Positions 8,380 through 56,378 of a stretch of DNA of 64,000 nucleotides are shown here, in pieces. How positions within the stretch are numbered: the first letter of the stretch is position 1; each line of letters starts with the position of its first letter. The notes beneath the pieces were generated by a model. That model did not search any database. It was given only the letters and a program-made list of their open reading frames with translations, and was not told the DNA's origin. The stretch covers positions 21,328,001 through 21,392,000 of the forward strand of contig NC_135806.1 in NCBI RefSeq assembly GCF_964213995.1, in the 5' to 3' direction. The stretch is from Mustelus asterias (lineage: Eukaryota). The position numbers and the translations under genes are program-made.

Positions 8380-9500
8380 GCAGGGAGCCTGAGACCCTCA
8401 CCCCAAATCCTCCTCTTCAGCATAAGGGCAGAAGAAGAATGTATGCGCTCATCGTCGCTCTGACGTGAGCCCAGGGAGTTTGAATGCTGGCATCAGACAG
8501 ACAGGAGTCAGACATTAGCAATATCTTGAAGGAGAATCATGGATCTTTCCTCACTGATATAGTGCAGGGCTCCACCGGACCTCTCTCAGGAGTGGAAGTG
8601 CATCTTCAGAAGTCCAATTCATCACTTGATCACCAAGTGTGTGGCATTGTGTGCCTTGCTGTTCTCTGAAGAATTCTGTGGCCTCCGCACTGGTGTCATC
8701 AGCCACAGCCTGAGGGGATAACCCTTGTCCCCGGGGAGCCTTCCCTGTAGCCTGGGTATCCCTCAAAGAGTCTCGGGATCTGGGACTGGCCAAGGATGAA
8801 AGCTGTCATGTATGTTCCCTGGGAAATGGGCACACACATGCATTATATGCAGCTCATAGTCGTAGACCAGCTGCACATTTAGGGAGAGGAGCTCCGACCT
8901 GTAAATGAAGGGGACACCTGATGCAATGGAGCATGGAGAGCCACATGGGTGCAGTCAATTTCCCTCTGCACCTGTGGCAAACCTGTTTTCTGGCCGAACC
9001 TCGTGGATCTCTCACCCTGTCTGGCTTGGTCCTGATCAAAATGACTGTCGTCATTTGTCCTGATGTGGAGATGCCGGCGTTGGACTGGGGTGAACACAGT
9101 AAGAGCTTTAACAACACCAGGTTAAAGTCCAACAGGTTTATTTGGTAGCAAATACCATTAGCTTTCGGAGCACTGCTTTTTGGAGCAGCGCTCCGAAAGC
9201 TAATGGTATTTGCTACCAAATAAACCTGTTGGACTTTAACCTGGTGTTGTTAAAGCTCTTACTGTGTCATTTGTCCTGGCATAGACTGTATCCACCACCT
9301 CATGGATGCACTTATGAGAGAATGCCTGAGAGATTCCACACAGGTCCCCGGTGGAGTCCTGGAAGAATCCCGAGGCACTGAAATTCAGGGCTGCCCTACC
9401 CTTAGTGCAGCAGGTGTCCTCCTGGGCTGGGAAGATCACAATTGGAAATCTTGCCACAGCAAATCCCATTTTTGGCCTCTCATGAGTTTTAGCAGCCATT
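8380..9500 (-). pseudogene. Decayed PIF/Harbinger DDE transposase (HARBI1-like family)
   Basis: Reverse-strand motifs occur in the expected order: GFFQDSTGDLCGISQA, EIDCTHVAL, GDKGYPLRLWLMTPVRRP, IGLLKMHF...RSGGALHY. Multiple stops and frameshifts. Confidence 0.9.
9063..9265 (-). mobile_element. Penelope-like mini-insertion made of two inverted terminal-repeat arms plus tail
   Basis: 13-bp TSD GTCATTTGTCCTG at 9050-9062 and 9266-9278. 84-bp arms at 9094-9177 and 9184-9267 with one mismatch. The sequence matches the termini of the PLE at 54579-56230. Confidence 0.9.
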
Positions 9501-10275
9501 ACGGGATTGCGCCCATGGCTAACATGGCCGCTAGATCATGCCCATTGTTTCATCCAGCTTAGAATTTGTGGTCCTTTGAAGTTCCTTCCTGACTCCTGTT
9601 CCTTCAGAAAACAAGGGATTTTCACAACTATTTAGAGGATACAACTGGAGGAGTCTTTTGCATTTGAATGACTCTTTGTCGCCAGCTCTAGGGTCTGATG
9701 AGGAAAGATGCCACGTTGTCCGCCCATACTTCCACTTAGAAAAAGGCTTTCAAACTCAATATAAAGATCTGAAGACAGTAATGTACCTTTAAAGACCATT
9801 GACCTTAAATCTGTAATCTCACAATTCCATGTTTGTGACAATTATGTAGCTATAAAGTTAGGCATTTGGAAATTGAATTGAAGGGCGAGAAACTCTTTGG
9901 TTTCTGCAAGTAGGTCAAAGAAGACAAACATAAAAAGAGTTGCTTCTTATAAAACGCCTACCTGAAAACGAACTGAAGCACCCACTTATGTTAACCTCAA
10001 TAGCAGCTTTTTATGTCAAGATGCACAACTACTTGCTTCCTTCCTTTGGCATTGTGATTGAGTGCAAAATATTGTTTCAGGAGAACAAATCCTGAAAAGA
10101 TTTGATTGCTATCAGGTCTCTGAATAATTCGAGAGCGGCTGCCATTCAAAGACCATGAATCAGTTCCACTGCTAATAAAAAAAAACATTGCATCACTTTT
10201 ATGCCATATCCTGGCTGATTCTCATAATTAAACTTCCAAAAATTTATCACAATTTTTACCTTGCTAACTGCACAG

Positions 10276-10294
10276 TCTTTCCAGCAAAGGAAGG
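10276..10294 (+). other. Candidate microexon (19 nt, or 10 nt from the alternative AG at 10283-10284)
   Basis: Branch-like GCTAAC, TGC motifs and CAG acceptor(s) upstream, with a consensus donor G|GTAAGT. Lies in non-repeat sequence. Confidence 0.4.
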
Positions 10295-11303
10295 GTAAGT
10301 ATTGCACAGCAGTTGATGAACATCCTGTTAATGGAACATATAAATAGGCGCTGTGATCCATTCCGTATACTGTACATCCTAACGGCTTATAAAACAGTTC
10401 AGAGTAGGTGTCAGTATCACAGGCAGTGTTCTGTGGCAGTCTTGAAATTGATCCCACATGAGACTAGCAGATCTACACAGGAACAGTTCTGTCACACAAA
10501 GCATTGTATCAAAACTGAAATGCGCAACTAAGTATGAATCATCGGGCATGAGACTGTATCAAATACACATCTCCAACATCAGCCAATGACAATCAATAAA
10601 ACTAATGCAATATCTGCAAAACCAGAGAGATGCCTGTGGGCAATTACAGCATGCCTGTATTGCCACCAGGTATTCTAAAACAAGAAACAAAAATACAATT
10701 TTATATGTTTATTGTACTGCATACTAGAACAACAATCCAAAATTACAATCTCTGTATCCTTCTTCCAATATGATCTTTGTCCCAAATGTGTAATTAGCTG
10801 CCAAGTGCATGTGTGCAGTATACAATATAGTATATGGTTAAAAATATTGTTCTGCAATTTTTACATAAGTTACTTAATATTAAATTTGTCAGAAACAGAC
10901 TCAAAGTGAAACATTTTCTTTAGAGTATTGTTGTTGTCAAACAATGAGATTAATGCAAACATAGTTTGACCAGCAACTGACACCAACTCTTCAGCTGATG
11001 TTAACCATATCTGTACACCCTATTCTGCTTAATAGCTGCAGTACCAAGACAGGAAAAAATTCTGAATATAGTTATTAAAATCTCTGATCGCTGCAGGATA
11101 TTATTTTTTGCAGTTACTTTCAAAGTTCAAATGGTTACTATTTAAAGTCAAAGGAAACAGAGACACATTAAAATCGACCCATTTTGTATACAATATGAAA
11201 CTAGGTGGCAAGGCAAATATTTCAAACAAGAAACTGGCCAGAGATGCACAAAAGAACAATGGTAGATAATTTGATGCAGAGATGCAGAGAGGTCACGTCA
11301 CAT

Positions 11304-11577
11304 TGTGGTGAACCATCGTTGGTTACCACTGTGGGGTTATTCTAATGTTGTTGTTGGGCTAGGGTGTTTTCACTGTGGGATTAATACACCTGTGGTGGTT
11401 GCTGTTGTGGCACATCCCAGTCGGGCCCCGCCTCCTGGGAGAGGTATAAGACCCTCTGCTCGGGCGGGACCCCTCCAGTCTGGAATGGTGTACTCGTGTT
11501 TAAATAGTTCCATTGTTAGACAATAAAAGCCTTCAATTACCGAAGCCTTGTGTCTCGTGCTCGATTGTCGTGCATCA
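11304..11577 (+). mobile_element. Solo LTR, 274 bp (Gypsy/BEL-type size and TSD)
   Basis: TG...CA termini; exact 5-bp TSD CACAT at 11299-11303 and 11578-11582; TATAA near 11445; AATAAA at 11522. CpGs are retained. Confidence 0.85.
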
Positions 11578-11599
11578 CACATGTTCACTGGATTTGAGA

Positions 11600-11720
11600 G
11601 AATTAGATGGTGGAATTTGAATTCAATAAAAAAATCTGGAATTAGGAATTTACTGATGACCATGAAACCATTGTCGATTGTCAGAAAAACCCACCTGATT
11701 TACTAATGTCCTTTAGGGAC
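11600..11720 (+). mobile_element. Internal fragment of the L2-tailed tRNA SINE
   Basis: Near-identical to ~5370-5487. Confidence 0.8.
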
Positions 11721-11722
11721 AC

Positions 11723-11970
11723 TACTACTTTCTCAGAAGACTAAGGAAATTTGGTATGTCCATACGACTCTCACCATCTTTTACAGATGCACGATAGAAA
11801 GCATTCTTTCTGGTTGTATCACAGCTTGGTATGGCTCCTGCTCCATCCAAGACTGCAGGAAATTACAAAGGGTCGTGAATGAAGCCCAGTCCATCACTCA
11901 GTCCAGCCTCCCACCCATTGACACTGTCTATACTTCCCGCTGCCTCGGAAAAGCAGTCAGCATTTACCAA
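11723..11970 (+). mobile_element. Rex1/Babar LINE ORF 3' fragment
   Basis: Translates as YFLRRLRKFGMS...FYRCTIESILSGCITAWYGSCS. Confidence 0.8.
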
Positions 11971-13174
11971 AGACGTAAAGAGTCTGAATATTATTGCATT
12001 TTGTGTGATGGTCATTTTGGACAGATTTATGAATAAAGTATATTTTTGGAAAAAAAAGTAACCTCTGATTTAAAATTCCACCAGCACCCAATAACCTTTC
12101 ACTCCATCCCATTTATCAGGAATTGATCTACACCTGCCTAAAAAATACTCAAAAGCTTTTCTTCCACTGCCTTATGAAGCAGGGAGCTCCAAAGGCTCAC
12201 TAACCTCAGAGGAAAGAAATCTCCTCAATTATGTCTGAAATGAGCGACCCGTTAGTGACCCCCCTAGTTCCAGATTCTCCCACAAGAGGAACCATCCTTT
12301 CCATTTCTCTCAAGGCCCTTCAGGATCTTATGTGTTTCAATAGAGTTGCCATTTACTCTTCTAAATTCCAACACAAGCTGGAACCCATCCATTCCAGTTT
12401 TAGTGTGGAAAACATTCTATGTCCAATCTTCTGACTTGCCTCACATCTTTGAGCAATTAGATGCTTTCTCTTTAAGTTCGATACTATCTTGAACTTTTTT
12501 AGTTAACCACAGATGGCGGGATCTCCTCTTGGAATTTTTCTTTCTCATTGGAATGCATCCACTCTGTATATTCGGAAATATCCCCTTAAATGTCTGCCAC
12601 TGCATCCCTATTGACCTGTCCTATAATCTAAATTGCCAGTTCACTTAGCTAGCTCTGCTTTCATGCCCTCATAATTGCTCTCATTCAAGTTTGAAATACG
12701 AATCTTTGATCCACTCTTCTTGCCCTCAAATTGAATGTAAAATTCAATCATATTTTGATTCTTGCTACTGAGGGGTAGTTCAATATGAGGTAATGAACTA
12801 ATCCTATCTCGTTGCATGAAACCAGGTCTAACATAGCCTGCTCTATGGTTGCTCCAGAATGTGCTGTTCTAAGAAACTATCCTAAAAGCTTTCAATGAAT
12901 TCCTCATTTAGGTTACCTTTGCCCATCTGATTTTTCCAGTTTATATTTAGATTGAAATCCCCCATGATAATTGCCATAGCTTTCTGACAAGTTCCCATCT
13001 TTTCTTCTTTGATATCCCATCCTCCCATATGGTGTCTGTTGGAGGGTCTGTAAACCACTCTCACTCGTGACTTCTTGCTTCTATCGTTCCTCATCTCACA
13101 CAAACCACTTCAATATCCTGATTTCCCAAACTTAGCTCATCTTTCTTTAATGTGCGATATCATCTTTAATTAAT

Positions 13175-13305
13175 TTGATTTGATTTGTCATATGTTTTGG
13201 GATACAGTGAAAAGTATTGTTTCTTGCACTCTGGACAGACAAAACATACTGTTCATACAGTACATAGGGAGAAGTGTTACAGTTACAGATAGGGTGAAGA
13301 GAATG
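13175..13305 (-). mobile_element. Rex1/Babar-type 3' tail
   Basis: Reverse strand ends TACTTTTCACTGTATC...TGACAAATCAAATCAAA. The same tail occurs at ~23605-23670 and ~57945-58100. Confidence 0.6.
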
Positions 13306-14139
13306 GGTTGTAATGGGCTAATATTATCTTTAATTAATAGAGCTCCTCCCCCCTCAATTTGTCCTAGATTCCCGTCCTTCCAAAATATCCAAATGTCACA
13401 ATATTCAGATCCCAATCAATGTGAATGTGCAGCCTTGATTCTGTCATGGCTTTCAGATCATATTTATTTATCTCTCTTCCGCCATCAGATCATCTGTTTT
13501 GTTCCGAATGCCACATGTATTCAGATACAGAGCCTTAGGTTTTGTCATTTTTATTATTTTTGTAATCCCTAGCCCGATATGCTGGTTTATTCTTTGCACT
13601 CTCTGTCCCTTCCTGTCACAGTCTATCATTCCTAATATTAATACCTTTCTCTCTGGCCTTGTCTCTACTCTTTGAAATACCACACTTTCCCAAATTTGAT
13701 CCCTTGCCTCCACTATTTAGTTTAAAATCCTCTCTAGTTCCCTAATTATGTGGCTCATTCGAATACTTGTCTCAGTACAGTTCAGGTGTAGGCCCTCCCA
13801 AAGGTACAGACCCCACCTCCTCCAATACTGCTGCTAGTTTCCCACAAACTTGAACACACTTCTCCCACACCAATCTTTGAGCCGTGCATGCATCAGTCTA
13901 ATCGTATTTGCATGTGGCTCATAAGGGATTATTACATTTAAGGTTCTTCTTCTTAATTCAATGCCTATTTCCTCATGCTGAGAATACAGTACCTTGTTCC
14001 TTGTCCTGTCTATGTCATCTGTACCTATGTGGACCAACCCTTCTTCCCGTTCCCACTCTAAATTCCTTAACCCTGAGCAGAGTTCCCAATCTTACACTGT
14101 GTAGGCAAAACTGCCTCTGGATTCTCACTCTTTACAGCA

Positions 14140-14503
14140 GGGCAGCACGGTGGTGGAGTGGTTGGCACTGCTGTCTCACAGCACCATGGACCCAGCCTTG
14201 GCTGACTATCTGTGTAGAGTTTGCATGTTCTCCCATGTCTGTGTGGGTTTCCTCTGCGTTTCCTTTGGACTGTGGGGTTTCCTCCCACAGTCCAAAGATG
14301 TGCAGGTTAGATGGATTGGCCATGCTGAATTGCCCCTCAGTGTCTGAAGATGTGTAGATTAGGTGGATTAGTTGGAGTAAATGCACGGGGTTACGGGGGT
14401 AGGGCAGGGGAGGGCCTGGGAGGGATGCACTTTCAGAGAGTTGGTGCAGACCCGATGGGCCAGGTGGCCTCTTTCTGCTTCTTAGAGATTCTATGGTTCT
14501 ATA
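14140..14503 (+). mobile_element. V-SINE, CR1-type tail A, full length
   Basis: tRNA head, V-domain and a tail ending TTCTATGGTTCTAT. Confidence 0.9.
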
Positions 14504-15127
14504 GAACAGTATTGTTCCCCCTCACTACACTGTCCAATACTATCACCACATTCCCTTGTGTTACCCCCACTTGAATGGCTTCCTACACCTTGGTGCCATT
14601 GTCAGTGTGCTCCCCGACACTGCAGACCTCACTTTCATCCACACAGATTGCGAGCACCCCAAACCTGTTTGACAATTGCAAAACCTGAGGCTTCTCCACT
14701 CCTGTCTGCTCGGTCCATTTACCTGCCTCACTTCCGGTCACATCCTCCTGTCCCTCACCACTGACCAAAGCTGGCAACCCCATTCTAAGAGACGTGGCTG
14801 TCCTCTGGAACACAGTGTCCAGCTATTTCTCCCTCTCCCTGATGTTACAGTTCAGCTTCCAGATCAATAATCCTGATCCAGAATTCCTTTACGTGTTTAC
14901 ACTCTCGACAGACGTTGTCTGCCCTGGATTGCCTTAGCATCCAGAAATTCTCACATCCCACTGCTGCAACATAACAGCTGCCCTAACATTATTACATGTT
15001 CTTTAGTTAATTTAATTTCATCATTTTATGGGCTCTCTCTCTCCAAACATTGCACTGCTTTATGGACTCTCTCTCAATCTCTGAAAGCTTTGCAGCTTTA
15101 CATTCTCTCTCTATATCTCCAAACTCT

Positions 15128-15800
15128 GGGGGCAATTCTCCCACTCCGCCATGCTAGTTTTCTAGCACAGCATGGCGGGAGAATCTCGCATCTGAGCATG
15201 CACACGATTCCCACGTCTTCCCGCCGCACGCGCATCTCCCAGTGCCGGATTTCTGGCGCTGTCAGATCCAGACTAGATACCGGCGGGAACACTAGGTAAA
15301 TAATTTACATCAATTTTTAAATGTTATTTCAATGTGATTACCGGGCCCGGGACTGAATTCTCTGGGCCTGGTAGCCTCTTCCAACCCCCCAGTGTGTTTC
15401 ACTCTAGCGGGGTTTACAGTAGGTCCCTACTTTCGAGGAACGAGCGGGGCGACCCCACTGGAATGAAGGGGGACAGGGGTTGGAGCTGGGCCAGGGAATG
15501 GTTGGGTGGCCGCGATTGGGCCGTGGGAGTTTGGGGGGGGGCAGCACAGCGGGGTCCTGGGCTGGCCAGCAAACATGAGGGTGGCAGTTCGGGGCCACTG
15601 CACGTCGCTGAGTCCCGCTAGTTTCAGCCACCGGGTGGGTATAGGCCCCACCACTGAAATTTAATCATATTGATGCTGGTGGCCTCTGCAGTGCAGAGTG
15701 TGGGAGATTCTAGTCTGAACTCCCACTGAAAAAAACAACGCGAATTACTCCAGTTTTCCCGCAAATTCGACACTTCGAATTTTTTTGGAAGAATCACCCC
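15128..15800. mobile_element. Non-autonomous Harbinger-type element (MITE)
   Basis: Imperfect TIRs GGGGGCAATTCTCC / GGAAGAATCACCCC. Its right end is the reverse complement of the left end of the element at ~42786-43908. Confidence 0.7.
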
Positions 15801-16718
15801 CCCCCCCATGTTGTTTTCTGGCGGTCTCACTCAGTCTCAGAACTTTGTGCCTCTTTTTGTTCTCTCTTTTTATCTCCAAACTAGATGCTACTTTACGGTC
15901 TCTCTCTCTCACTCTTTCTGAACTCTGTGCTGCTTTCTGGGCCTTCTCGCTCTCTGAACTCCCACTGTATGGGCTTGTGAAATGAACGAGTTAGCACACC
16001 TGATGGTGCTTGCTGGAGCCACTCTAAAAATGCGTAAGTTAGATTTTGTGAATTATATTTGCAGGGCTAGGAGGTCAGTGTACTTACAACCTTGCATTAT
16101 CACTGGGCTCTCCTCATTAACACCAATCTGCCAACTTGGCTCTATGGATGAACCAGTAGATTTTGTTCTTTAGCGAGCTGCCTGTCCCTTCACCAGTCCA
16201 ATAGTCTAGGATTCTCTGTTGACTTGTAACTAATGAAAGATGGAAAGATTTCTGCTCAGCTTACATTATTTCAACATTCCCATACAGTGACTGAGATCCA
16301 ATTTCTATTATACTCACCTTTCCCACCCCATACTTTTTTTTTCATTTCTCTTTTTATTTATATCAATTTTTCTTTTGTTTATTTTCATAGGTTAATTTTG
16401 TATACCATGCAAGCCGGGTTGGAGATTTACAATTCGAAAATCAAGTTTGCTCTTCTGAAGCCTTTGTCAAATTTTTGCTTTTGATCTTAATGAGGCAGAT
16501 AGATTGTACATTAAAATGTTGCATGGGAGATTAGATGCAAGTGACAACACATTAAAGAGAGGAACAGAAGAAAAAAAAAATCAGTTGGAGTTATAACTTT
16601 CTATTAGCAAATTATGGTTATGCAACAGCCTGCCAGATTAAGAAGCAAGTGGTACCTATAAAAGATTAAATCAGTTTGAGTTCCATTTTCTTCCACTTGT
16701 TGTTCACAAAATATAATT

Positions 16719-18919: not shown

Positions 18920-19054
18920 TAAATCCTTTGATTGCCAGCCATGACTCAGTTGGTAGCACCCTAACCCCTGAGTCACAGGTTCTGGGTTCAAGTCCAACTC
19001 CAAGGCTTGAGCATAAAAATCAAAGTTGACACTCCCATGCAGTGCTAAGGAAGC

Positions 19055-19207
19055 CATGATGTGGAGATGCCGGCGTTGGACTGGGGTGGCCACGGTAAGA
19101 TGTCTCACAACATCAGGTTAAAATCCATCAGGTTTATTTGGAATCAGAAACTCGTGATTCCAAATAAACCTGTTGGACTTTAATCTGGTGTTGTGAGACG
19201 TCTTAAT
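19055..19207 (-). mobile_element. Penelope-like mini-insertion (tail plus ~55-bp inverted arms)
   Basis: Arms at 19092-19146 and 19155-19209 around the loop GAAACTCG. Diverged TSD GTGCTAAGGAAG / GTACTAAAGAAG. Confidence 0.85.
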
Positions 19208-19356
19208 GTACTAAAGAAGAATGTTGAAAGTGCATCTGCCTGCATGGTTGGATATAAAAGTTTTCATTGGACAATTTTGAAGAAGAACAGGCGAGTTATA
19301 CCCAGTATGCTGGCTAATGTGTATCATTCAAGCAACATCACACAAAAAGAAATATT

Positions 19357-24640: not shown

Positions 24641-24689
24641 CCATTTTTGCAAAATTGCGCATTGTTCCAGTCTGTCTTCAAAATATTCT

Positions 24690-24826: not shown

Positions 24827-24884
24827 TATTAATTGTATATTTATGGCTAGTTTTAGCAGTCAGTAGGAGACTATCATAGGGTAG

Positions 24885-25398
24885 AATCATAGAATCCCTA
24901 CAGTGCAGAAGGAGGCCATTTGGCCCATCGAGCCTGAACGGACAACAATCCCACCCAGGCCCCATCCCTGTAACCCCACGTATTTACTCTGTTAGTCCCC
25001 CTGACACTGAGGGTTAATTTATCATGGCCAATCAACCTAACCCACATGTTCTGTCCGCGCAGGCGTGGCTTTCCTCCAGATGCTCCGGTTTCCTCCCACA
25101 GTCCAAAGATGTGCGGGCTAGGTTCATTCGCCACGCTAAATTGCCCCTTAGTGTCCTGAGATGAGTAGGTCAGAGGTATTAGTAGGGTAAATATGTGGGG
25201 TTATGGGAAAAGGGCATAGGTGGGATTTTTGTCAGTGCAGATTCAATGGGCCGAATGGCCTCCTTCTGAACTGTAGGGTTTCTATGTTTCTATCTTTGGA
25301 CTGTGGAAAAAACCCATGCAGATATAGAGAGTATGTACAAACTCCACACAGACAGTCACCTGAGGCAGCAGTGCTAAGCACTGAGCCACCATGCCGCT
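24885..25398 (-). mobile_element. V-SINE (minus) containing a 5'-truncated V-SINE (plus, ~25048-25291)
   Basis: The host SINE breaks at ...AACCCACAT and resumes at CTTTGGACTGTGG. The insert ends TTCTATGTTTCT. Confidence 0.85.
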
Positions 25399-34495: not shown

Positions 34496-36992
34496 TAAAC
34501 TTTTCACATAGGTGACCTCATGGGTGATTGATTGCTGAAGTGGGCTCATAGGAAGGCCCACCTCTAATATCTGGGACTTCATCTCAGATGTTTTAGAAGC
34601 TGTTCTATCTCTCACCACTCACACCCATCAACCCCACCCACTCTTCATACCCCTTCCATGTCAACTCATGCCCCCACAACTATCCCCCTTTCCCCTGCAT
34701 GCCCGTCATGTCCCACTCATAACAATTTGTGCCACTTCATGCCTCTGCTTGCCCTCTCCATGTCATCTCCTGCCCATGTCACTTCCATAGCCATACACCC
34801 AATATCCACTATGGACAGACTTAAGGAGCCATGTGGAAAAGAAGAAAAATAACCATCTAACAGTCCAAGAGAGCTCTCGTTAAGACATAGATGATAGTAA
34901 AAAAACTCTCAGTCCTGAAGCCCATTCAAAGATTTCAAATCATGTCAAGTGTTCAAGCTGCTGTAAAAACAAATACATTTCTAATCAGGAACCACATTGA
35001 GGAGAGCCAATCATTTAATACACTCTTTAAACTGTCAATTAAAAATGAGCTCAAACGCAACCCCACCTCTCCCAACCTGCCCCCCGCCCCCAGAGATTCT
35101 GACTGAGATAAACACTTCTGTAGCTTTTTGAAACTCAGCCAAGCATTCATGATGATGCCAGCGGTAATAATAACACTGGAGAAATATCAACAAAGAAGTC
35201 AATTGAAATTGTAGGAACAGCTGGTAATTTGTTTGTCTATCTTACACTAGATCGTTTGTCAATCAAAGTATTCCAGCAGAAGTACTTTTTTAAAATCCAC
35301 CCGATAGCTTCAGCCTGTTTTTTTTTCATATTTAAATAATTTCAAATCAGGATATTTAAACTGACCTTAAACCTTATCCATCATTAAACAGCATTTACAT
35401 ATATTCTATCGACTCATGACTGCCACACTTCGGTTTAAGGTTCTTGGAATAGAAAAAATAGTGTCAGTTTGAATTATATTCAGTCATGGAGTAAGGGGGA
35501 GGGGAACGGATTCCCTTCTCTTCAACTGCTCACTTAGCACCAGCTTTTTAACACAGCAGTTATTTCAAGTTTCTGAGCCTTCATAGAAAGCTAGGAGCTT
35601 CAAACTGCTGTAAACCTTTGTTTCCATTCAAGTTCAGTTCTGTCCTTTTAGTAGCTGCAGGTAACTTCAAAGCAGCCGAGTGCTTTTCAGTTCCTTGTTT
35701 GTGTAAATATTACAGTTAGGAAGAATGGGAGGTACTTGAGATGCATTCAAGAATGAAGGGAAAGGTAAGTAAACACAACTGACTGGATACTGAGTAAAAA
35801 CCATTAAGCTGTCAATCAAAGAAGAGTTAAAAGGACTGAACTGAAGTTGAATGGAAACAGAGGTTTGAAGGTGTTTCGATGGCTCAGCTTTCTATGAAGG
35901 GTCAGAGACTTGAAATTAATGCTGTGTTAAAAGAAAGGGGATAAGTGAGCAGTTGTGGATAAGGGAATATCCCCTCCACTCTCCTTGCCCCAGTGAATGC
36001 GAGTGACGTATGTCAGATGAGAATTGAAAGAGACCTTCTCACATCTGCAGCTTCCTCGACAGAGAAAAGGGAATCACTTCTGCTGAATAGAGTGCTGCAG
36101 TGATTTGGAAGCCTTCCAGCTGTCCAGGGGGCATGGAGATTAAAGCAACAGAGGCAATAATGAGTATTTCACCCCAAAATGGTGTCTGAATTCATCATCC
36201 TGAAACAAAACAACACCTTTCCCAGGGCTAGAGGGGGCAGTCCAGCCACCAGACTCCAATCTTGGGAGGGGGGCGGGGGGGGGGGGGGTGCGGGGGTAGT
36301 GGCGAAGTGAACCCCTTGCCCCAGCCCCACCCCACCCAGACTCCAGGACCCTTGAGGACCCTCTGCAACCTGACAGCGGTAGAGGGACACATGGCCATTG
36401 GACATACATCCTTGACACCCCCCCCCCTTGGTATCAAAGGCAACAGGCCAGGTTGTCAGTGCCAGAATGCTAGGAGGCAGTGCACTATTGGCGTTGCCAG
36501 GGGATGGGGTCTCAGAGGGGGAGTGGGATGTGGGGGGCTGGGGGAGCGGGGGGAAGAGGAAGGCTGAGGGGGAGAGGGTTCCCTTCATGGCAATGTGGTG
36601 AGGGGGAGTGGTGACCCATTATTTCAGTGGTGTGAGGAAGATGCCCCTCTTTGCCAAGGGGTTGGAGTGCTCCCCTGGCCAGTGGCATGAGTCAGGCTAG
36701 CCAATGTGTTTCTCAAGATCCACTGATTTGCATCTTTCAGGTAGGTGAATCCCACTTGACACACGCTGCCAGTGCCAATGGGAAACACTCCAGTTTTACT
36801 GCTGGGAACTTTGTGCTGATTTGGGTGAATTGCACCTGACATCTCTTTATCCAACTGAACTGCAATGTCATCAGATCAAATTTTCCATCTTCTTCTCATG
36901 TGCCTGAACTCAACATCTTGCCAATGGTGACCTTCCCATTTTATGCCAGCAGGTGGCGCTGCTATGGCACCTTCACTGTCACCAATTGTCAC

Positions 36993-37083
36993 AGTAAGAA
37001 GTCTCACACACAGGTTTTAACCTGGTGTTGTGAGACTTCTTACTGTGTTCACCCCAGTTCAACGCTGGCATCTCCACATCATG
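36993..37083 (+). mobile_element. Penelope-like mini-insertion, 91 bp
   Basis: 12-bp TSD ACCAATTGTCAC at 36981-36992 and 37084-37095. Short inverted arms are followed by the tail ...GGCATCTCCACATCATG. Confidence 0.9.
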
Positions 37084-37559
37084 ACCAATTGTCACTAACA
37101 TCTTTAGGGAAGTGTTCAAGTGAGCAACACTTCAACCAGCCAGTCTTCAAACTAAACTGTGACTTTGATATGTTGATGACAATTTCAGATGGCAACATGA
37201 TTTGAGAGAACTTCAGTGTCCTACAACACCGCAACTAGCAACGTTTCGGCATTAATTTTAATATGGGGATGGAACAACAACTTTCCTTACCATTTCTTGG
37301 TGCTCTCATCATCCAAGCTCTCAACACGCCAATACATCAAGTCTATCATAAGACACTCATACTATCAGATACCCTCCACCTTCCAATCAGTTTCCATCAC
37401 TCATCCTAAAATACCCTACTCCATCAGTGACAAAAAAAACATATACAACAATAACTTTACCATCATAAACCTGTATGTTAACTCAATGGGTTCCCATTAC
37501 ACAAGATTAACACACAGCCACCAGTTACTCATTCCATAACAATTTTTTCCATTCCGACA

Positions 37560-38590: not shown

Positions 38591-39408
38591 TCAAATGCAG
38601 GTAGGGATGGTGGCGGGCTATCAACATAGTGGTGATGACTCGCCAATGGCGTAATGAGGATCCCACCATGATCAATTATCGCTGCCCCCCCACCCTGTTG
38701 GACTTTAACCTGATGTTGTGAGACTTCTTACTGTGCCCCTCCCTCCCCTCCCCACCCACCAATGGTGTAATGAGGTTCCCACCATGCAAGGAGTCATACG
38801 CTGGCAATGCCCTGGGAGTAACCTTGCACAGCCCCTGGCTCTCCACCCACTCCCACTCCCAGCAGTACCAGGACATAGTGGCAGAGGGCAGTGCTGGGGG
38901 CTTCATTTGGGGAGATCTTTGAGGGAGGCTGGGTGTCCTGTGCCATGGGGGATTAGCTGTGTCTGTGGCGGGGGGCCCCCATGTGTGTTGGGAAGTCTCT
39001 GTATGCATTTTTTGGGTTCCCTGTGCGCGTCGGGGATGGGTTTCTGTGTCCATGAGGGGGCATCCTTGTTTTTATTTTTACTCTTTTGGGCCTGTTGATC
39101 TCTTGAAGGCTGAGGTTGCTGGTGGGGTGAGTTCATTCAGAGCAACCCCCTCCCCCCCACCCCCACCACCAGCATGACATCGTGTGACCCACTTTTCTCC
39201 TAGCTTAAAAAAAATTGTGGGAAATGCTGGTTTATGGAGTCGCTGGGGCAGCACACCGCATTTCCCGCCCGACCTGGCCGTTAGTTAATAACTCAAAACA
39301 TTCCACCCAGTGAATGGGACAAATCGACTATGTTAATATGCTCAAGTTAGTAACCACCTCCTCCAATGACCCAGATCTAGACTTATCCATCAATCAGTGA
39401 CACACAAA

Positions 39409-43908: not shown

Positions 43909-44009
43909 CTCCCTCTGTGGGAGTCCCAACTTGTTATGATTCTGTTTGGGATACCCCTGCATTGTTCTGCCACCAGAGATGAGGGACGACCAGGCCCCCT
44001 TTCATTATT

Positions 44010-47940: not shown

Positions 47941-48207
47941 GGGTGGCACAGTGGTTAGCACTGCTGCCTCACCAGGGACCCGGGTTCGATTTCCGGCTTG
48001 GGTCACTGTCTGTGGAGTTTGCATGTTCTCCTCGTGTCTGCATGGGTTTCCTCCGGGTGCTCCGGTTTCCTCCCAAAGTCTGAAAGACGTGCTGGTTAGG
48101 TGCACTGACCCATACCGACACCGGAGCGTGGCTAGGGGACTAGGGGAATTTCACAGTAACTTCATTGCTGTGTTAACGTAAGCCTTTCTTGTGACTAATA
48201 AACAAAC
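47941..48207 (+). mobile_element. V-SINE, tail B
   Basis: Full unit. Confidence 0.9.
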
Positions 48208-49304
48208 TTTTGACTTTTAACTTTAGGGAAAAGGACAAAGATACACAGTGGAAATGGAAAGAGGACTGATCTCTGAGAAAGGAAGGAAATCAGAGAGGCA
48301 GAGAGAAAGAATGGAGCTGATAAACAGAAGGAAAAGAGCAGAGAGATGGGGCTGGATTTACTGCCCCCCATTAGGTATATTTTCAGAGTGGTGGGGGGGG
48401 GGGGGGGGGGGGGGTGGGGCAGCTCAAACATGTCAGGTGTTCATCCCACTTACTTCCCACCCAAAAATGTTCCTCATAATATGAGGTGGCAAGTCACCCA
48501 CTGGGCCACCTGCCTTTAGGCCTACTGAAGCCCTTAACTGTTCAGTTAATTGACAATTAAAGGCCTCAACCTGCCTCCACCAGCCTAAAACACTAAGCAG
48601 TGGCAGCAGGCCAGGTTGTGAAGACTGTTTTCGAAAGGGCTTCTTTGAAAAGATGGGTAAGGAGGAGTAGCACATCAATAGGGGAGCACCTTATGTGCAT
48701 CAGGTGCACCCCCTTCTGTCCCTCCCTGTCCCCCCAAACCATGTTCCTCTTGACTTTCCCTCCAAACCCGGCTCCCCAAACCCCTCTCCCCACTGTTGAG
48801 TTCTCTGAAGCCTCCCGCTCTAAAAGAGCTTGGACGGAACTGTCTCCGATCACCATCACTCTACTTCCTGCATCTCCCCGCAACCCTTACAGCACCCACT
48901 ACTGGACTCTGGCACTGCTGGTTAATCTGAATGGTTGAGACTTCCTGTCTAATGGGGGGGAAGCGGGGGCGCGAAGTCCAACCATGAGCTTTTTTAGCCC
49001 ACCTCACACCACCACCAGCCTATTATCACTGCAGGGAAAACTCTTTAAAGGCCATTCTATTTGGACCACCTTTGTTTCTCGAAGAGTCAAGCAGCACACA
49101 CCCCCCCACCCCCAGCCGTCCCCCAGCCTCCCTGCCCCAACCTGCCTCCATTAAGTCAAGGCCATGGCAACTCAGAAGGAAAGAAGGTAAAGGAAGAGAC
49201 ACCAGAGAAACAGAAAGGACCAAATAGGAAAAAACATAAAGTAAAGAAGAAGCTAGGAGAGATGAAAGAAGAGATATGATGATGTGGAAGAAATGGAGTT
49301 CCCA

Positions 49305-49480
49305 GAATGCCAACAGTGCAAAAGGAGGCTATTCGGTCCATCGAGTCTGCACCGACCACCCAATCCCATAATCCCACCCAAGCCCTATTTTCTCAACCCC
49401 TCACATTCACCATGCTAATCCACTGACACTAGGGTCAATTTAGCATGGCCAATCAATCTAACCCGCACATCTTTGGACTG
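49305..49480 (-). mobile_element. V-SINE 3' half, tail A
   Basis: Reverse strand shows the end of the V-domain and the CR1-type tail. Confidence 0.85.
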
Positions 49481-49699
49481 AGAGTTGAGAGAGAGACACA
49501 CAGAGGAGACAAATGTAACAAAGGTTGGGAATGAGAGTAAAGCTTGTGAATGCAAGCAATGGAGAAATGTGAAGACAAGTATGTGTATTAAAAGGAAAAA
49601 TCATTAAAACCTGCCTGAACTGGTCTTGTGTACATTAAAATGGAACGCCAATATTACTGTTCCAGTATTACTGATTTTCATTGGGATTTGAAAAGGTTT

Positions 49700-50150
49700 A
49701 TCTATTGTTTCCTAGTGCTTCTCATAATCTGAGGATATTTCAAAACGCATCATAGCCAATGAAGTACTTTTGAAATGTAGTCACTTTTGCGATGTAGGAA
49801 ATATAACAGACAATATGCAGGCGGGAAAGACCACAACGGCAAGGTGAGAGAATGACCACATCTCATGATGTTGATTGAAAGATCAATATTGGCCAGGACA
49901 TCTGTGATAACTGCCTTGCTCTTATTTGAAATTGTGCCATGGGATGTATTTCATCCATTTAAAGAGGGCAGACAGCACTTCATTTAACATTTCATCTGAA
50001 AAATGTCACCTCCAACAGTGCAGCAATTCCTTAATATGGCACTGCAGTATCAGCCTAGCCTTTTGTGCTCAGGTCACTAGACTAGAACTCCAACAACTCA
50101 GCCTTGTTAACTCAAAGACGTGAGTGGTACAAACTGAGGTATGGCTGACA
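49700..50150 (-). mobile_element. Old Deu-domain SINE
   Basis: Reverse strand reads GTCCTGGCCAATATTGATC, TTTCCTACATCGCAAAAGTGACTACATTTCAAAAGTACTTCATTGGCT. Confidence 0.65.
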
Positions 50151-50749
50151 GAGAGCTGCACGAGTTGGTTGATCAATTTGTGGGACTGTTACAGAAAGGA
50201 GAGGTTGGATGACAGATAGATACCAAATTAAATAGTAACAAGATTAGAAAGAAGAGAACTGACATGGGAGTGAAGTAAAATCAAATGTAACAAATTTACT
50301 CTATCAGAGTGCACAGAGGAATGCATACTCATTGCACTTTTTAAAGTTACTACTGAACGACATGATATTTGCAACTCCTTTGAATTTACAAAATGCAATT
50401 TTAGAATAAAGGCAAAGCGAGGCCAGATGCTTTCATTCTGTCAAAGTGAGGTATCAATTGGGGATTTTGTTCTTGTGGATCGCTAATCTAAAGGTGCAGG
50501 CGACAATTGTTTAGCTCCATTGGATAGCAACAGCAAATTAACATTGGGCATATTTCCAAATCATGCAAACAGTTTAATGGTTAAGGAAGATAGACCAAAG
50601 GGTTCTTGAGTGAAGGTTGCAAAATTCAGCCTGACAAGCTTGATTCATGTTAGCTGGCTGCAAATCGAACTCTCAGGATCAGGGAAGAGCATTGCACGCA
50701 GATATTTACATACATCCGCATGGTTAAACTTTTAAATGCACTGAGAACA

Positions 50750-50970
50750 GGCCCCTTTGGACCCTTTTGTATCTCTCCCCTCTCACCTTAAACCTATGCC
50801 CTCTAGTTTTAGACTCCCCTACCTTTGGAAAAATATCTATGCCCCTCATTATTTTATAGACCTCTATAAGATCGCCCCTCAGCCTTCTACGCTCCAGAGA
50901 AAAAAGTCCCAGTTTACCCAGTCTCTCCTTATAACTAAACCATCAAGTCCCGGTAAGTATCCGAGTAAAT
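50750..50970 (-). mobile_element. CR1 ORF2 3' fragment
   Basis: Near-identical in part to 21525-21610. Confidence 0.8.
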
Positions 50971-51544
50971 CTTTGACAATGAAGACCTGCCTAATTTTAT
51001 CAAGGATGTTTTTTATATATTATAACTTACCTGTTAAGGTTGACTGCCACATATCAGTCATTTATAGCCAAGCTGAGCTGCAAAAAAAAGATGCAATGTT
51101 TCTTTCCATTTGTACACAAGAGAGAAAATAATTTTTAAAATGTGCTGATAGTGTTGGATAAAAAATAAGGGGAAGAAATAAGGAGTATAATCATTGGCAT
51201 GGACCAGTTGAGTCAAATAGTCTGTTTGTGTGATGTACAATCTGTAATTCCATCCATTGCTGCCTTAGCCTTGATTAAAAATTTACTGGCAACATTCTGG
51301 ATCTGATTGTACCTCTTCAATTACATTTGAAAGCTGTCAGCTCAGCTTTGTTATCTGTAGCTCTCTACTCGATTTTCATGTTAGATTATAATTATTGTAT
51401 CAATTGACACGAGTAGAATTTGAAGAACATATCTAAACTCCTACATCTATTTGGTTTTGACTGCCTTTGGTACATGGCTTCCCTCCTACTAAAGGGTGTT
51501 CAAAGTACCTGACCTGGAGAGTACCCAAAATTGATCTATTTTTG

Positions 51545-52330
51545 AATCATTCATGAAATGTGGGTGTTGCTGGCAAGGCCAACATTTATTGCCCATCGCT
51601 AATTGCCCTTGAGAAGGTGGTGATGAGCAGCCTTCTTAAACCATTGCAGTGCATGTGATGTAGGTATACCCACAGTGCTGCTAGGGAGGGTGTTTCAGTG
51701 TGTTGACTCAGCGTCTATGAAGGAATGACAATATATTTCCAAGTCAGGATGGTAAGTGGCTTGGAGGGAAACTTCCAGGTGATGGTGTTCCCATATGCCT
51801 GCTGTACTTGTCCTTCTAAATGGTAGCAGTCATAGATTTGAAAGGTGCTGCCTAAGGATCCTTGGTGAGTTTCTGCAGTGCATTTTGTGAATGGTACTCA
51901 TTGCTGCCACTGTGCATCAGTAGTGGATGGAATGAATATTTGTGGATGGGGTGCCCAATAAGTGGGCAACTTTGTCCTGGGTGGTGACAGGCTTCTTGAA
52001 AATTGCTGAAGCTTCACTCATCCAGGCAAGTGGAGAGTATTCCATCACACTCCTGACTTGTGCCTTGTAGATGGTGGCAGACTCGGGGGAGTCAGGTGGT
52101 GAGTTACTCATTGCAGGATTCCCAGCCTCTGACCTGCTCTTGCAGCCAGAGTATTTATATGGATCATGCAGTTCAGTTTCTGGTCAATAGTAACCCTCAG
52201 GACGTTGATAGTGGGGGTTTCAGTGATGGTAACGCCATTGAATATCAAGGGGCGATGGTGAGATTCTCTCTTATTGGAGATGGTCATTGCCTGGCACTTG
52301 CCACTTGTCAGCCAAGACTGGATATTGCTG
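51545..52330 (-). mobile_element. L2-clade LINE 3' end
   Basis: KCQAMTISNKR, AGQRLGIL and TIYKAQVRSVMEYSPLAW, with tail GATGGGCAATAAATGTTGGCC...ATGAATGA. Confidence 0.85.
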
Positions 52331-52439
52331 CATTTGAACATGGACTGTTCAAGTCATCTGTCCTCTGCCTAGCAGGATCTTTTTTCAGTGAGATGTTGAT
52401 ATTCATCAGTTTTCATTACAGGTCACGACACATTTGTCT

Positions 52440-52880
52440 TGATTCTTTGATGGGCTGTGGGCATCGCTGGCAAGGTTTGTATTGGTTGCCCATCCCTAAC
52501 TGCCCTGGAACTAAGAGAGTTATTGGGCCATTTCAGAAGGCAATTAAGAGTCAATTACTATGGATCTGGGATCACATGTAGGCCTGACCAGATAAGGCCA
52601 CCGGATTTCATTCCCCAAAAGGAAATTAGCAAACCAGGTGGGATTTCACAACGCCAACGATGATTGCATGGCCACCATTACTGAGACTAACTTTTAATTC
52701 CAGATTTGTTAGTTGAACTTAAATTTCACCAGTTGCTGGGGTGGGATTTGGACCCATGTCCCCAGAACATTAGTAAGAAACATTAGTAAGAAAGTCCAAC
52801 GCCGGCATCTCCACCCCAGAACATTAGCCCAGGCCTCTGGATTGGTGATACAGCAACATTACCACAACACCACCTTTACA
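52440..52880 (-). mobile_element. L2-tailed tRNA SINE (diverged)
   Basis: Diverged relative of 5280-5640 in reverse orientation. Confidence 0.7.
52774..52813 (+). mobile_element. 40-bp Penelope-like insertion footprint
   Basis: 14-bp TSD CCCCAGAACATTAG at 52760-52773 and 52814-52827. The insert contains AGTAAGAA and AGTCCAACGCCGGCATCTCCA. Confidence 0.85.
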
Positions 52881-54671
52881 TGTACGAATTTTACTATTTG
52901 ACTATAAAATGAAAGCCATCAGTTTACACGGGTGATTTTAACTTGTTGTCAGTGAAATAATTAAATGAAACAGATTTTCATTATGCTATAAAATGGACCA
53001 AAAAACTGTCTGCTGGAAGGTTGTGAAGCAACTATTAGGTTCGACCTCCAAGGTGATCTTTGTACATGCTTACAAAGCAAATGCACCTCACTCTGTAATA
53101 CATTAATATTCAAGATGCAACATATACCAATGACACAAAAGTAAAACCGGACCAGTAATGTCACATAGCATTGAGATAGTTTTTCAAAGTGACCAATATT
53201 TCAGCAAAAGAATTGTTACGTTAATAATACCTCTAGCAGTTACATAAATTATCTTGTCGGCCAAGTCCTCTCTTCCATCCCTTCAACAGTACAAATGGTA
53301 GCTCTCATTCTCAATGGCTATTAACGTACAATAGTATGAGACACTATGGAAATATTTCATCCACATCACAAAAATGGGAAACAGGAGTATTCTTATTCAA
53401 ACATGTTTAAACTCTGCTCCTCTGCCACAAGATGGAGACAATTCAAGAATGCTCCAAAAACCAAATTCAAAATCCAATTGAATTCAATTCAAGGTCCCCA
53501 CAAGAGAGGCAAACAAGATTCAAGCTGACACGATGATGCATTGCACCCCATCTTGGGACTGATCTTTGCCAAAATAATTTTCTCTGCTCTGGGCAAGAAG
53601 AAAATACCTTGATGGTTTTCACAGCGTGATTTGACAGTAGTTACAATTACTGCATTCCTGAATCTGGGAGTCGGTGAGGAGGGGGGGGGGGGGGGGTTGT
53701 TAAGCAGGGGTTGGGCAAAAGTTATTTTTCCTCCCAAATCCATACATGGTCTTTTGATGTGAGCAGAAGTTTACCAACTTTGAAGACCTTCACTGGAATT
53801 CCATTGAGTTCACGGGTTTTGTTGTTTTTCATCCATTTCAATGGCTTTTACAGCTCTCCATCAGTAGAGTTGCACCCATGGATTCTCCCACAGTGCACTG
53901 GCGGCTGGCTTACAGTGTCTTAGCTGCCACTGTGGATTCCTGGTTGAGGAGTTGGTGAATGTTCTCTCCAGCATTGAAGAATGGCATTGTCACCTGTAAG
54001 AATCGGAACACCATCCTGTGTGAGTGACAGGGGTTTTGTCCATTTGGTCTTGTATGGTCCTGGATGGATTAAAAAAAACTTCATATATCATGATAGTCAA
54101 AATATTGTTGGGTCTCTTGGGATTTCTCTTCCCACCACATGTCCTTTCTCTTCTGGATTTGTCTTTGGGTATCAGTCTTAACCTGTTCGAATGCAGCCTT
54201 CTTGACTTGGGTTGCTCTGCTGGGCAATGAAGGCTGCTTGGTTTTAGTCCAGGAAATGTCATACTTCAGCACTGAACTAGTCCTGGTGATGGCAATGATC
54301 GAAGCCAATGATCTGGGCACAGGAGTCTAATATAGCTGACTTTATTTGATCCCACTGTTTTGGAATAGAGTTGGATGTGTGAAAATATTCCAGATTGGTT
54401 ATGAGCTGGTCTTAGAATTCCTCTCTTTAACCAGAATGCTTGGGTTTGGACATTGATCTTTTTCCTTTTGGATTTTTGGGCATTGCCAATGTCTAGGTGC
54501 CAGATGGATACTCATCACTGATTAAACAAGTGTATGGTTTCTCCAGCAGACAACAGTCCCCTGTATGGGTTCAGTGGTGATGTGGAGATGCCGGCGTTGG
54601 ACTGGGGTAAACACAGTAAGAAGTCTAACAACACCAGGTTAAAGTCCAACAGGTTTATTTGGTAGCAAATG

Positions 54672-54708
54672 CCACTAGCTTTCGGACCGCTGCCCCATTG
54701 TCAGGTGG
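54672..54708 (-). ncRNA. Minimal type I hammerhead ribozyme motif (core CTGACGA mutated to CTGACAA)
   Basis: CCAC-CTGACAA-T-GGGGC AGC GGTCC-GAAA-GC-TA-GTGG. Confidence 0.7.
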
Positions 54709-54933
54709 AGTGGGAGATGTGCTCACAAACAGGGCATACGGAGAGACAAACTCAATTTACAGAATAATGATTGGAATTCTAATCAAGCTAATCAATGCTA
54801 ATACAGCTAATCAAGTCTTAAAAGGTACAGACAATGTGACTGGAGAGAGCATTAAGCACAGGTTAAAGAGATGTGTATTGTCTCCAGACAGGACAGCTAG
54901 TGAGATTTTGCAAGTCCAGGCAAGTTGTGGGGG

Positions 54934-56035
54934 TTACAGATAGTGTGACATGAACCCAAGATCCCGGTTGAGGCCGTCCTCATGTGTGCGGAACTTGGCT
55001 ATCAGTTTCTGCTCCGCGACCCTGCGGTGTCGTGTGTTGTGAAGGCCGCCTTGGAGAACGCTTACCCGAAGCTCAGAGCCTGAATGCCCGTGACCGCTGA
55101 AGTGCTCCCCAACAGGAAGAGAACAGTCTTGCCTGGTGATTGTCGAGCGGTGTTCATTCAATCGTTGTCGTAGCGTCTGCATGGTTTCCCCAATGTACCA
55201 TGCCTTGGGACATCCTTTCCTGCAGCATATCAAGTAGACAACGTTGGCCGAGTTGCAAGTGTAAGTACCGTGTACCTGGTGGATGGTGGTATCACGTGTG
55301 ATGATGGCATCCGTGTCGATGTTCCGGCACATCTTGCAGAGGTTGCTGTGACAGGGTTGTGTGGTGTCATGGTCACTGTTCTCCTGAAGGCTGGGTAGTT
55401 TGCTGTGGACAATAGTCTGTTTGAGGTTGTGCGGCTGTTTGAAGGCAAGAAGTGGGGGTGTGGGGATGGCCTTGGCGAGATGTTCATCTTCATTGATGAC
55501 ATGTTGAAGGCTCCGGAGGAGATGTCATAGCTTCTCCGCTCCGGGGAAGTACTGGACACGAAGGGTACTCTGTCCACCGTGTCCCATGTTCGTCTTCTGA
55601 GGAGGTCGGTGTGGTTTTTCGCTGTGGCGCGTCGGAACTGGTGATCGATGAGTCGAACGCCATATCCTGTTCTTATGAGGGCATCTTTCAGCGTCTTTAG
55701 GTGTCTGTTGTGATCCTCCTCATCCGAGCAGATCCTGTGTATATGGAGGGCTTGTCCATAGGGGATGGCTTCTTTAATGTGTTTAGAGTGGAAGCTGGAG
55801 AAGTGGAGCATCGTGAGGTTATCTGTGGGCTTGCGGTACAGTGAGGTGCTAAGGTGACCGTCCTTAATGGAGATGCGTGTCCAAGAATGCAACCGATTCC
55901 GGAGAGTAGTCCATGGTGAGTCTGATGGTGGGATGGAACTTGTTGATGTCATCATATTGTTGTTTCAATGATTGTTCACCATGAGTCCAAAGGAAGAAAA
56001 TGTCATCGATGTATCTAGTGTATAGCATCGGTTGA
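54934..56035 (-). pseudogene. PLE reverse transcriptase C-terminal half plus GIY-YIG endonuclease (frameshifted)
   Basis: YTRYIDDIFFLW, VAFLDT, SLYRKPTD, AIPYGQAL.I.RICS, a Cys-rich linker, then NVVYLICC...WYIGET...QRLNEHR, EHF and GLNRD. Confidence 0.95.
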
Positions 56036-56137
56036 AGGATTGATAAAGCATTGATTAGCTTGATTAGCATTCAAATCATTATTCTGTAAATTGAGTTTGA
56101 GTCTCTGTATGTCCTGTTTGTGAGCACATCTCCCACT

Positions 56138-56174
56138 CCACCTGACGAAGGGGCAGCGCTCCAAAAGCTCGTGG
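56138..56174 (+). ncRNA. Minimal type I hammerhead ribozyme motif (GAAA mutated to AAAA)
   Basis: CCAC-CTGACGA-A-GGGGC AGC GCTCC-AAAA-GC-TC-GTGG. Confidence 0.75.
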
Positions 56175-56378
56175 CATTTGCTACCAAATAAACCTGTTGG
56201 ACTTTAACCTGGTGTTGTTAGACTTCTTACTGGGTTCAGTGGTACAGATATCACTTAGATCTTTGACCTGAAAAAGAAACATAATTGATGAGGTGCCAAT
56301 GCTTTGATCTAAGAGATCTCCATATGATTTTGTATTTATTATTCTAGGGAACAAGGGTGTTTCTTATGATAAGGCCAA

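What the first reader, a model, noticed from the sequence alone, without database searches (positions are those of the whole stretch)
9050..56243. Graded series of five double-ended Penelope insertions that suggests a two-primer integration mechanism
Seen: five insertions of one PLE family (1652, 203, ~150, 91 and 40 bp) share one architecture. Each has a 12-14 bp TSD, the tail ...CCAACGCCGGCATCTCCA(CATCA) at one end, and at the other end an inverted copy starting at the same point (CAGTAAG, ~35 nt inside the tail end). At that second junction the target shares a few bases with the element (GTCAC|AGTAAG, TTAG|TAAG, CTTAC|TG, CTTACTGT|GT). The two arms of each insertion share the same subfamily variants (AAGAGCTTTAAC in both arms at 9 kb; AAGAAGTCTAAC in both at 54-56 kb). 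Established: PLEs often show an inverted 5' terminal repeat and a short 3' tail. Inference: both target 3' ends prime on the same template species, one at its end and one by microhomology ~35 nt upstream, and the two cDNAs join at a variable point. The short copies would then be primary integration products, not later deletions.
Basis: partly seen in the sequence, partly recalled or inferred. Interest (0 to 1): 0.7.

Follow-up and report, generated by a model that had tools for sequence, protein, structure and literature searches.

The report
Twin-primed Penelope retroelement insertions
These five mirror-image inserts are real copies of a very abundant Penelope-like jumping gene with a layout already known for this class, and junction statistics from over a hundred sister copies indicate that it likely cuts a symmetric DNA site and copies one RNA from both cut ends, starting at two points about 37 bases apart.

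Summary
The five insertions are real. Two have clean empty sites in another organism's contigs. They belong to a Neptune/Nematis-type Penelope-like family of roughly 170,000 copies. In a random 1.56 Mb sample, 46 of 47 double-ended copies pair a tailed arm with an inverted tail-less arm. Targets are palindromic, (C)TG-NN-[12-13]-NN-CA(G). With nicks fixed by that motif, both junctions, not just the second, carry about threefold excess microhomology (p≤0.0003). Tail-less arms occur alone between TSDs and are often the longer arm, so they are not folded back from the tailed arm. Inner ends coincide far above chance; length does not track age; no junction recurs. The best model is twin priming of one RNA at two internal windows, then end-joining. 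The layout, the two start sites and both-strand priming in vitro are published (PMC3846280, PMC8557442, PMC11167929). The genomic link, the microhomology and the symmetric target were not found in my searches. This scan noted the model and the motif before, in this genome and others.

The parts
54566..54578 (+). TSD copy of the 1652-bp insertion, on the tail side
   Evidence: empty site
54579..56046 (-). tailed arm: 5'-truncated, frameshifted RT-GIY-YIG ORF, 3' pLTR and tail (tail end at 54579)
   Evidence: (GIY-YIG, E 0.00029, below the curated cut-off)
56047..56230 (+). inverted tail-less arm of the 1652-bp insertion
   Evidence: (190 bp at 93.7% to the other arm)
56231..56243 (+). TSD copy on the tail-less side; empty target reads CTG-T-[TSD]-TA-CAG on the minus strand
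9050..9278 (-). 203-bp head-to-head insertion (9063-9265) between 13-bp TSDs; arms end 119 and 115 nt from the tail end
   Evidence: empty site
19042..19219 (-). old 154-bp head-to-head insertion between degenerate 12-bp TSDs (10 of 12 alike); both arms end 84 nt from the tail end
36981..37095 (+). 91-bp head-to-head insertion (36993-37083) between 12-bp TSDs
52760..52825 (+). 42-bp insertion: 8-nt inverted arm, 13-nt local duplication, 21-nt tail piece that does not overlap the inverted arm; 12-bp TSD
38694..38735 (+). sixth copy, not in the finding: solo tail-less fragment, no TSD found

Best explanation
These are insertions of an endonuclease-bearing Penelope-like retrotransposon, each likely built by twin priming on one RNA. 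Shown from sequence: (1) the target is a spaced palindrome, (C)TG-NN-[12 or 13 nt]-NN-CA(G), and the 12-13 nt are duplicated; (2) the last 4-6 bases of both target ends match the element imperfectly, one at the tail end (around the ORF's ATG) and one 30-51 nt upstream (median about 37); (3) either start can give an insertion alone; (4) double-ended copies nearly always use one of each start. Inferred: a dimeric GIY-YIG makes two nicks 12-13 nt apart; each 3' overhang pairs loosely with the RNA in its own window and primes RT; the tail-end cDNA displaces the other as it goes; both often run to the same RNA 5' end or break; host end-joining, which looks like polymerase-theta joining, links the two cDNA ends head to head. 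Short copies are therefore likely primary products, not later deletions and not a separate family.
For: Random 1.56 Mb: 153 terminal hits are bimodal, 75 at the tail end and 65 at 1428-1446. TSD-verified classes there: 46 tailed plus tail-less, 1 both tail-less, 0 both tailed, 6 tailed only, 6 tail-less only (sorted by hand; binomial p 3e-13). Target motif: half-site spacing gives 12 in 58 and 13 in 23 of 97; both half-sites in 36 of 87 held-out sites vs 6% at random; genome-wide CTG 1,553 vs control CAG 16 at the predicted place. Microhomology: mean 1.13 at site 2 (n=91) vs 0.36-0.49, mean 1.39 at site 1 (n=80) vs 0.41-0.46, three nulls, p≤1/3001 for the two sampled ones, also in the random set alone. 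Genome-wide the last primer base matches the template in about 67% of about 4,600 arms vs 27.5% background. Tail-less arm longer in 22 of 42 lopsided copies, including the youngest (3066 vs 291 nt, 1 mismatch in 261). Inner ends within 15 nt in 61 of 115 vs 13.6 by permutation, and in 12 of 41 long pairs vs 1.9; equal length fits only 5. Length vs arm divergence rho -0.11, p 0.28. Arm-to-arm 2.3% vs copy-to-copy 9.3%. In vitro support in a relative: both strands nicked and extended, two RT starts flanking the tail, dimer predicted (PMC11167929).
Against: All of it is read from old junctions; no reaction was observed. 25 of 80 and 34 of 91 junctions have no terminal match, so pairing is not required. 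PMC11167929 reports start sites not homologous to the cut DNA and an ATT cut motif, in a different clade. 'One RNA molecule' is inferred: copies from one expressed source on two RNAs would also share subfamily marks, and a common RNA 5' end would make short copies symmetric on two RNAs too. Shared A-to-G changes, which would point to one edited RNA, were not enriched here (8 of 71 shared variants). 11 tailed and 13 tail-less ends of the random set had no usable TSD and are unexplained. 83 of the 122 pairs come from searches or the window, not the random set. Hairpin snap-back and end-to-end annealing give the same centre sequence in symmetric copies.
Confidence: 0.72

Rival explanations
1. Dual priming: both nicks prime, but on two separate RNA molecules carried by the dimer, one subunit using each start site.
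For: Explains the target symmetry, microhomology at both ends and lopsided arms in both directions. Shared A-to-G marks were not enriched. Proposed for L1 in PMC2837659.
Against: Free choice of site predicts about half both-tailed or both-tail-less; seen 1 of 47. Long arms stop at the same template position in 12 of 41 vs 1.9 expected, and not at equal length. No arm pair mixes the major subfamilies: all 16 discordant pairs of 91 differ by one base.
Confidence: 0.12
2. Fold-back: one cDNA primed at the tail end snaps back and copies itself, and the second target end then joins that copy by microhomology about 37 nt short of the end.
For: Symmetric inner ends. Several centres sit on local hairpins with 11-22 nt overlap. 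Self-priming was proposed for PLE palindromes in PMC3846280.
Against: Tail-less arms occur alone between TSDs (6 in the random set, 8 more in search loci). The tail-less arm is the longer one in 22 of 42. In the window's 42-bp copy and in L231 the tailed piece does not overlap the inverted arm. It could still make some of the symmetric copies.
Confidence: 0.08
3. Long palindromes were inserted first and shrank later by deletion, with the tail left by endonuclease resolution of an intermediate.
For: Palindromes are unstable (general knowledge, recalled). PMC8557442 suggests the tail comes from EN-mediated resolution. The element has CTG at the upstream site. Local duplications at centres could also come from repair of a later break.
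Against: Length is unrelated to age, and 14 of the 24 youngest copies are under 400 bp. Upstream starts spread over 10 nt in a register set by the target sequence, not one cut. 130 rare variants are private to one arm vs 17 shared, so arms aged separately.
Confidence: 0.06
4. The short palindromes are a self-replicating non-autonomous family (MITE-like or retrozyme-like).
For: Very high copy number and a pile-up of lengths at 120-290 bp.
Against: No shared inner junction among 115 copies; a continuous range from 42 bp to about 4.3 kb; all major subfamilies make them.
Confidence: 0.02

Closest known systems
EN+ PLE insertion units with inverted pLTR, TSD and optional 30-40 nt tail (Adineta Pen2/Pen2a, PMC3846280, passages; Craig 2021, PMC8557442, passages)
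   Same: Head-to-head layout; tail at one end; inverted pLTR 37 bp shorter than the full ones in Pen2a; TSD present; RT followed by GIY-YIG.
   Different: Those papers give TSDs of 8-10 bp and explain the layout by self-priming or EN resolution. The passages read give no symmetric target motif, no microhomology statistics and no class counts.
PAc, Poseidon of Anolis carolinensis, in vitro (Frangieh 2024, PMC11167929; parts 1-3 of 4 read, 3 supplements searched without hits, figures not seen)
   Same: Both strands nicked and extended; two internal RT starts that bracket the tail near the ORF start; dimer predicted; hammerhead upstream of the starts.
   Different: Poseidon clade; ATT cut motif; starts reported as not homologous to the target; later steps left open; inverted insertions not derived from the two starts. 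Here: CX4CxxC linker, TG-N16/17-CA target, partial pairing at both ends.
L1 twin priming and dual priming (PMC2837659, passages)
   Same: The second nick's 3' overhang anneals inside the RNA and primes a second, inverted cDNA; TSDs kept.
   Different: In L1 the second site is variable, the two cDNAs cover different parts of the RNA, and the event is a variant of normal insertion. Here the second site is a fixed window about 37 nt from the first, the cDNAs overlap so the product is a palindrome, and it is the main route.

Membership tests
EN+ Penelope-like element (C-terminal EN) | single ORF with RT followed by GIY-YIG | tested here: met
   892-aa open ORF in natural copy L108, RVT_1 E 3.8e-10; GIY-YIG E 0.00029 in the window copy, below Pfam's cut-off; VVY..YIG at residue 791
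EN+ Penelope-like element (C-terminal EN) | pLTRs from partial tandems, inverted 5'-truncated copy, 30-40 nt tail | tested here: met
   L108, L159, L290 carry pLTR plus tail running into the ORF; tail length 30-51, mostly 33-42
EN+ Penelope-like element (C-terminal EN) | hammerhead ribozyme motif in the pLTR | tested here: inconclusive
   CTGA(C/T/A)GA...GAAA core seen by eye in 34 long arms (motif recalled); Rfam gave 0 matches at E≤1; cleavage not tested
Neptune/Nematis clades | CX2-5CxxC zinc-finger linker between RT and EN | tested here: met
   CX4CxxC at residue 754; definition from PMC8557442
Neptune/Nematis clades | placement by RT phylogeny; Neptune vs Nematis | not tested
   no reference RT set on hand
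Penelope/Poseidon clade | linker zinc finger absent | tested here: not met
   the linker is present
L1-type twin priming | inverted second cDNA primed internally by the second nick with microhomology, TSD kept | tested here: met
L1-type twin priming | the two cDNAs are non-overlapping parts of the RNA, with an internal deletion | tested here: not met
   arms overlap and form palindromes: works like twin priming, not the L1 form
replicating non-autonomous family (MITE or retrozyme) | many copies share one internal structure | tested here: not met
   0 shared junction triples among 115

The most novel reading that the evidence does not exclude
For this PLE family two-ended priming is the normal route of integration. 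A dimer cuts a spaced palindrome with a 12-13 nt stagger, loads both overhangs onto one RNA at two windows about 37 nt apart by loose base pairing, copies the same RNA twice, and leaves host end-joining to close the centre. The tail is then simply the distance between the two active sites, and no second-strand synthesis step of the LINE kind is needed.
Probability: 0.55. Interest if true: 0.7.

Novelty: new variant of a known kind. Interest (0 to 1): 0.55.

Why it matters
How PLEs make their inverted repeats and one-sided tail is called undefined in PMC8557442, and PMC11167929 leaves the steps after first priming open. The copies here turn that question into exact predictions: the target sequence, the stagger, two start windows, register set by the overhang, and one RNA per insertion. 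All can be tested in the existing in vitro assay. It also explains a family of roughly 170,000 copies, many of them short palindromes, that could be mis-annotated as MITEs.

Tried and rejected
Pile-up of inner ends at the predicted hammerhead cut: not seen (1 of 150 ends at that base). There is a peak 5-14 nt upstream of the hammerhead core (33 of 150), weak in the random set alone (9 of 45 in the nearest 10-nt bin). It may mark an RNA 5' end; a TATA-like box lies upstream in some subfamilies but not all; untested. The apparent spike at 135 nt was partly an alignment edge and was redone. Equal-length termination of the two arms: rejected (5 vs 61). Correlation between the two start positions: none (rho 0.03, n=71). 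One both-tailed candidate (L189) was two separate insertions in copies of one repeat. Two DNA searches for common subfamily words returned nothing because such words are skipped. Rfam found nothing. Fewer chosen pairs of the CTCAC subfamily were examined than planned. No RNA run was examined, so RNA ends are untested. Pyatkov 2004 (PMC522041) was not held. Figures of PMC11167929 could not be seen and may bear on its no-homology statement. Literature searches that did not show this model or target in print; most subscription journals, including Arkhipova 2006, are not covered.
Full report
Observation. Coordinates, TSDs and lengths (1652, 203, 154, 91, 42 bp) check out. The long copy has a 5'-truncated, frameshifted RT-GIY-YIG frame on the minus strand. 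Contigs of a different organism bridge two sites with the element and one TSD copy missing: 54565 joined to 56231 and 9049 to 9266 (three runs, one sample). So those two TSDs are true duplications. I number the element by the window's long copy, 1-1469, with 1469 the last A of CATCA.

The family. Two exact 36-base subfamily patterns occur 55,325 and 58,287 times in the genome, reversed controls 0. About 72 tail ends in 1.56 Mb of random sequence give roughly 170,000 copies. A natural copy (L108) has an open 892-aa ORF with RT, a CX4CxxC linker and a GIY-YIG motif. That linker marks Neptune/Nematis, not Poseidon (PMC8557442). In four copies the tail runs straight into the ORF, and position 1469 is the A of its ATG. 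So the tail end is an internal point of the RNA, not its 3' end.

Sample. 156 random 10-kb stretches, 120 loci from four searches and 20 chosen pairs. In the random set 153 terminal hits end in two groups: 75 at 1466-1469 and 65 at 1428-1446; 13 end earlier. Over all sets, 122 unique tailed plus tail-less pairs have a TSD at both junctions, 39 of them from the random set; 2 were dropped for a misplaced TSD and 1 as a duplicate. The longest TSD match is 11-14 bp in 104 of 122.

Target. Rebuilt empty sites read (C)TG-NN-[TSD]-NN-CA(G). Half-sites placed independently imply 12 nt in 58 and 13 nt in 23 of 97. Both half-sites are present in 36 of 87 sites not used for training, vs 6% at random. Genome-wide, arms starting at 1431 with a non-matching last base have CTG at the predicted place 1,553 times vs 16 for the control CAG. 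For 54 of 122 the target lies in a repeat whose other copies show the empty site; 45 of the 54 best hits have no indel there. A symmetric site with a fixed stagger points to a dimeric nuclease; that step is inferred.

Microhomology. The motif fixes the nicks without reference to the element, so primer ends can be scored one-sidedly. 107 of 122 sites scored well enough. At the upstream site 91 were usable: mean match 1.13 nt, vs 0.49 with primers permuted, 0.36 for genomic motif sites and 0.42 for the other primer of the same site. At the tail end 80 were usable (the first search set was left out because its query held flank bases): mean 1.39 vs 0.43, 0.41 and 0.46; p≤1/3001 for the sampled nulls. 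The random set alone gives 1.17 and 1.34 (n=29 each). Match rates are 0.44-0.69 over the last 5 primer bases and fall to background by base 7-8. Genome-wide, after subtracting controls, the last base matches in 3,055 vs 1,537 arms, 67% vs 27.5% background; some of that class may be element-derived where the TSD was trimmed. About a third of junctions show no terminal match. Starts span 1427-1436 and 1464-1482 and are uncorrelated.

Is the upstream site an independent start? Yes. Tail-less arms of about 55 to 1,900 nt sit alone between TSDs: 6 in the random set and 8 more in search loci (L295, L276, L234, L200, L238, L241, and L242 and L273 with short matches), often with the unused end trimmed. 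Tailed arms alone with a TSD number 6. Among 42 lopsided pairs the tail-less arm is longer in 22 and the tailed arm in 20. In the window's 42-bp copy the two pieces do not overlap. Fold-back from the tailed cDNA cannot give these.

One RNA or two? In the random set, TSD-verified double-ended copies are 46 mixed (39 regular, 5 with a more internal start, 2 with a very short arm), 1 both tail-less (L154) and 0 both tailed; I sorted these by hand. Free choice predicts half mixed (p 3e-13). Of the other ends, 8 tailed ones were cut by a stretch edge, and 11 tailed and 13 tail-less had no usable TSD. Inner ends lie within 15 nt of each other in 61 of 115 resolved pairs (13.6 by permutation; 7 unresolved), 17 of 35 in the random set (5.8), and 12 of 41 where both arms exceed 170 nt (1.9). 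Equal length fits only 5. Arms differ by 2.3% vs 9.3% between copies (n=105); subfamily class agrees in 75 of 91 vs 26 expected, and all 16 exceptions differ by one base. This favours one template molecule but does not prove it, and shared A-to-G marks were not enriched.

Primary or deleted later? Length does not track arm divergence (rho -0.11, p 0.28, n=107; random set -0.14, n=30). 14 of the 24 youngest copies are under 400 bp. No two copies share a junction triple. Many centres carry short copies of nearby sequence, which from general knowledge is the mark of polymerase-theta joining; I did not test that statistically. Short arms mostly stop 60-160 nt from the tail end, in and just above the hammerhead-like region, with no spike at the predicted cut.

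Known work. The layout is described in PMC3846280 and PMC8557442 (passages), which suggest self-priming or EN resolution. PMC11167929 (parts 1-3 of 4; supplements searched) shows both-strand nicking and extension and two RT starts bracketing the tail, reports no homology, and leaves later steps open. L1 twin and dual priming are the nearest mechanisms (PMC2837659, passages). PMC2377424 (passages) reports an internal promoter for D. virilis Penelope; the retrozyme preprint 10.64898/2026.07.22.740005 (passages) does not treat priming. Searches did not show the genomic two-primer case or this target in print. Earlier notes of this scan report both, in this genome and others; my analysis through one search came before I opened them.

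Verdict. New variant of a known kind, interest 0.55.

Noticed in passing
window 38694-38735: Solo tail-less fragment of the same family, no TSD found; a 28-bp direct repeat lies at 38643 and 38759 around it.
   Followed up: partly
L160:5640-5733 and L173; L192 and L197; lists: Separate insertions at the same base of other high-copy repeats, with different arm lengths; these spots carry the target motif. Earlier notes name the host repeat as CR1; I did not test that.
   Followed up: partly
L189: Two insertions at the same position of two nearby copies of one repeat, in opposite orientation, as a symmetric target would allow.
   Followed up: no
L271: An insertion whose target is the endonuclease region of another copy of the same family.
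   Followed up: no
L159:5341-9314: The tail-less arm runs about 3.9 kb through a whole ORF and an internal tail into the upstream tandem unit; the tailed arm is 351 nt.
   Followed up: partly
L108 and related copies, near the stop codon: A 61-bp insertion between short direct repeats marks some young copies of one subfamily.
   Followed up: no
L278:756-1028: Six tandem 45-47 bp repeats of ORF sequence inside the tail-less arm, near the centre.
   Followed up: no
L038, L154, L166, L172, L159: Five random-set copies have the tail-less arm starting 52-74 nt from the tail end, further in than the usual window, with the TSD kept.
   Followed up: partly
window 24882-25292, 35498-35977, 60471-60523, 61703-61766: Other inverted repeats, some built from the window's abundant SINE-like repeats, not part of this family.
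   Followed up: no
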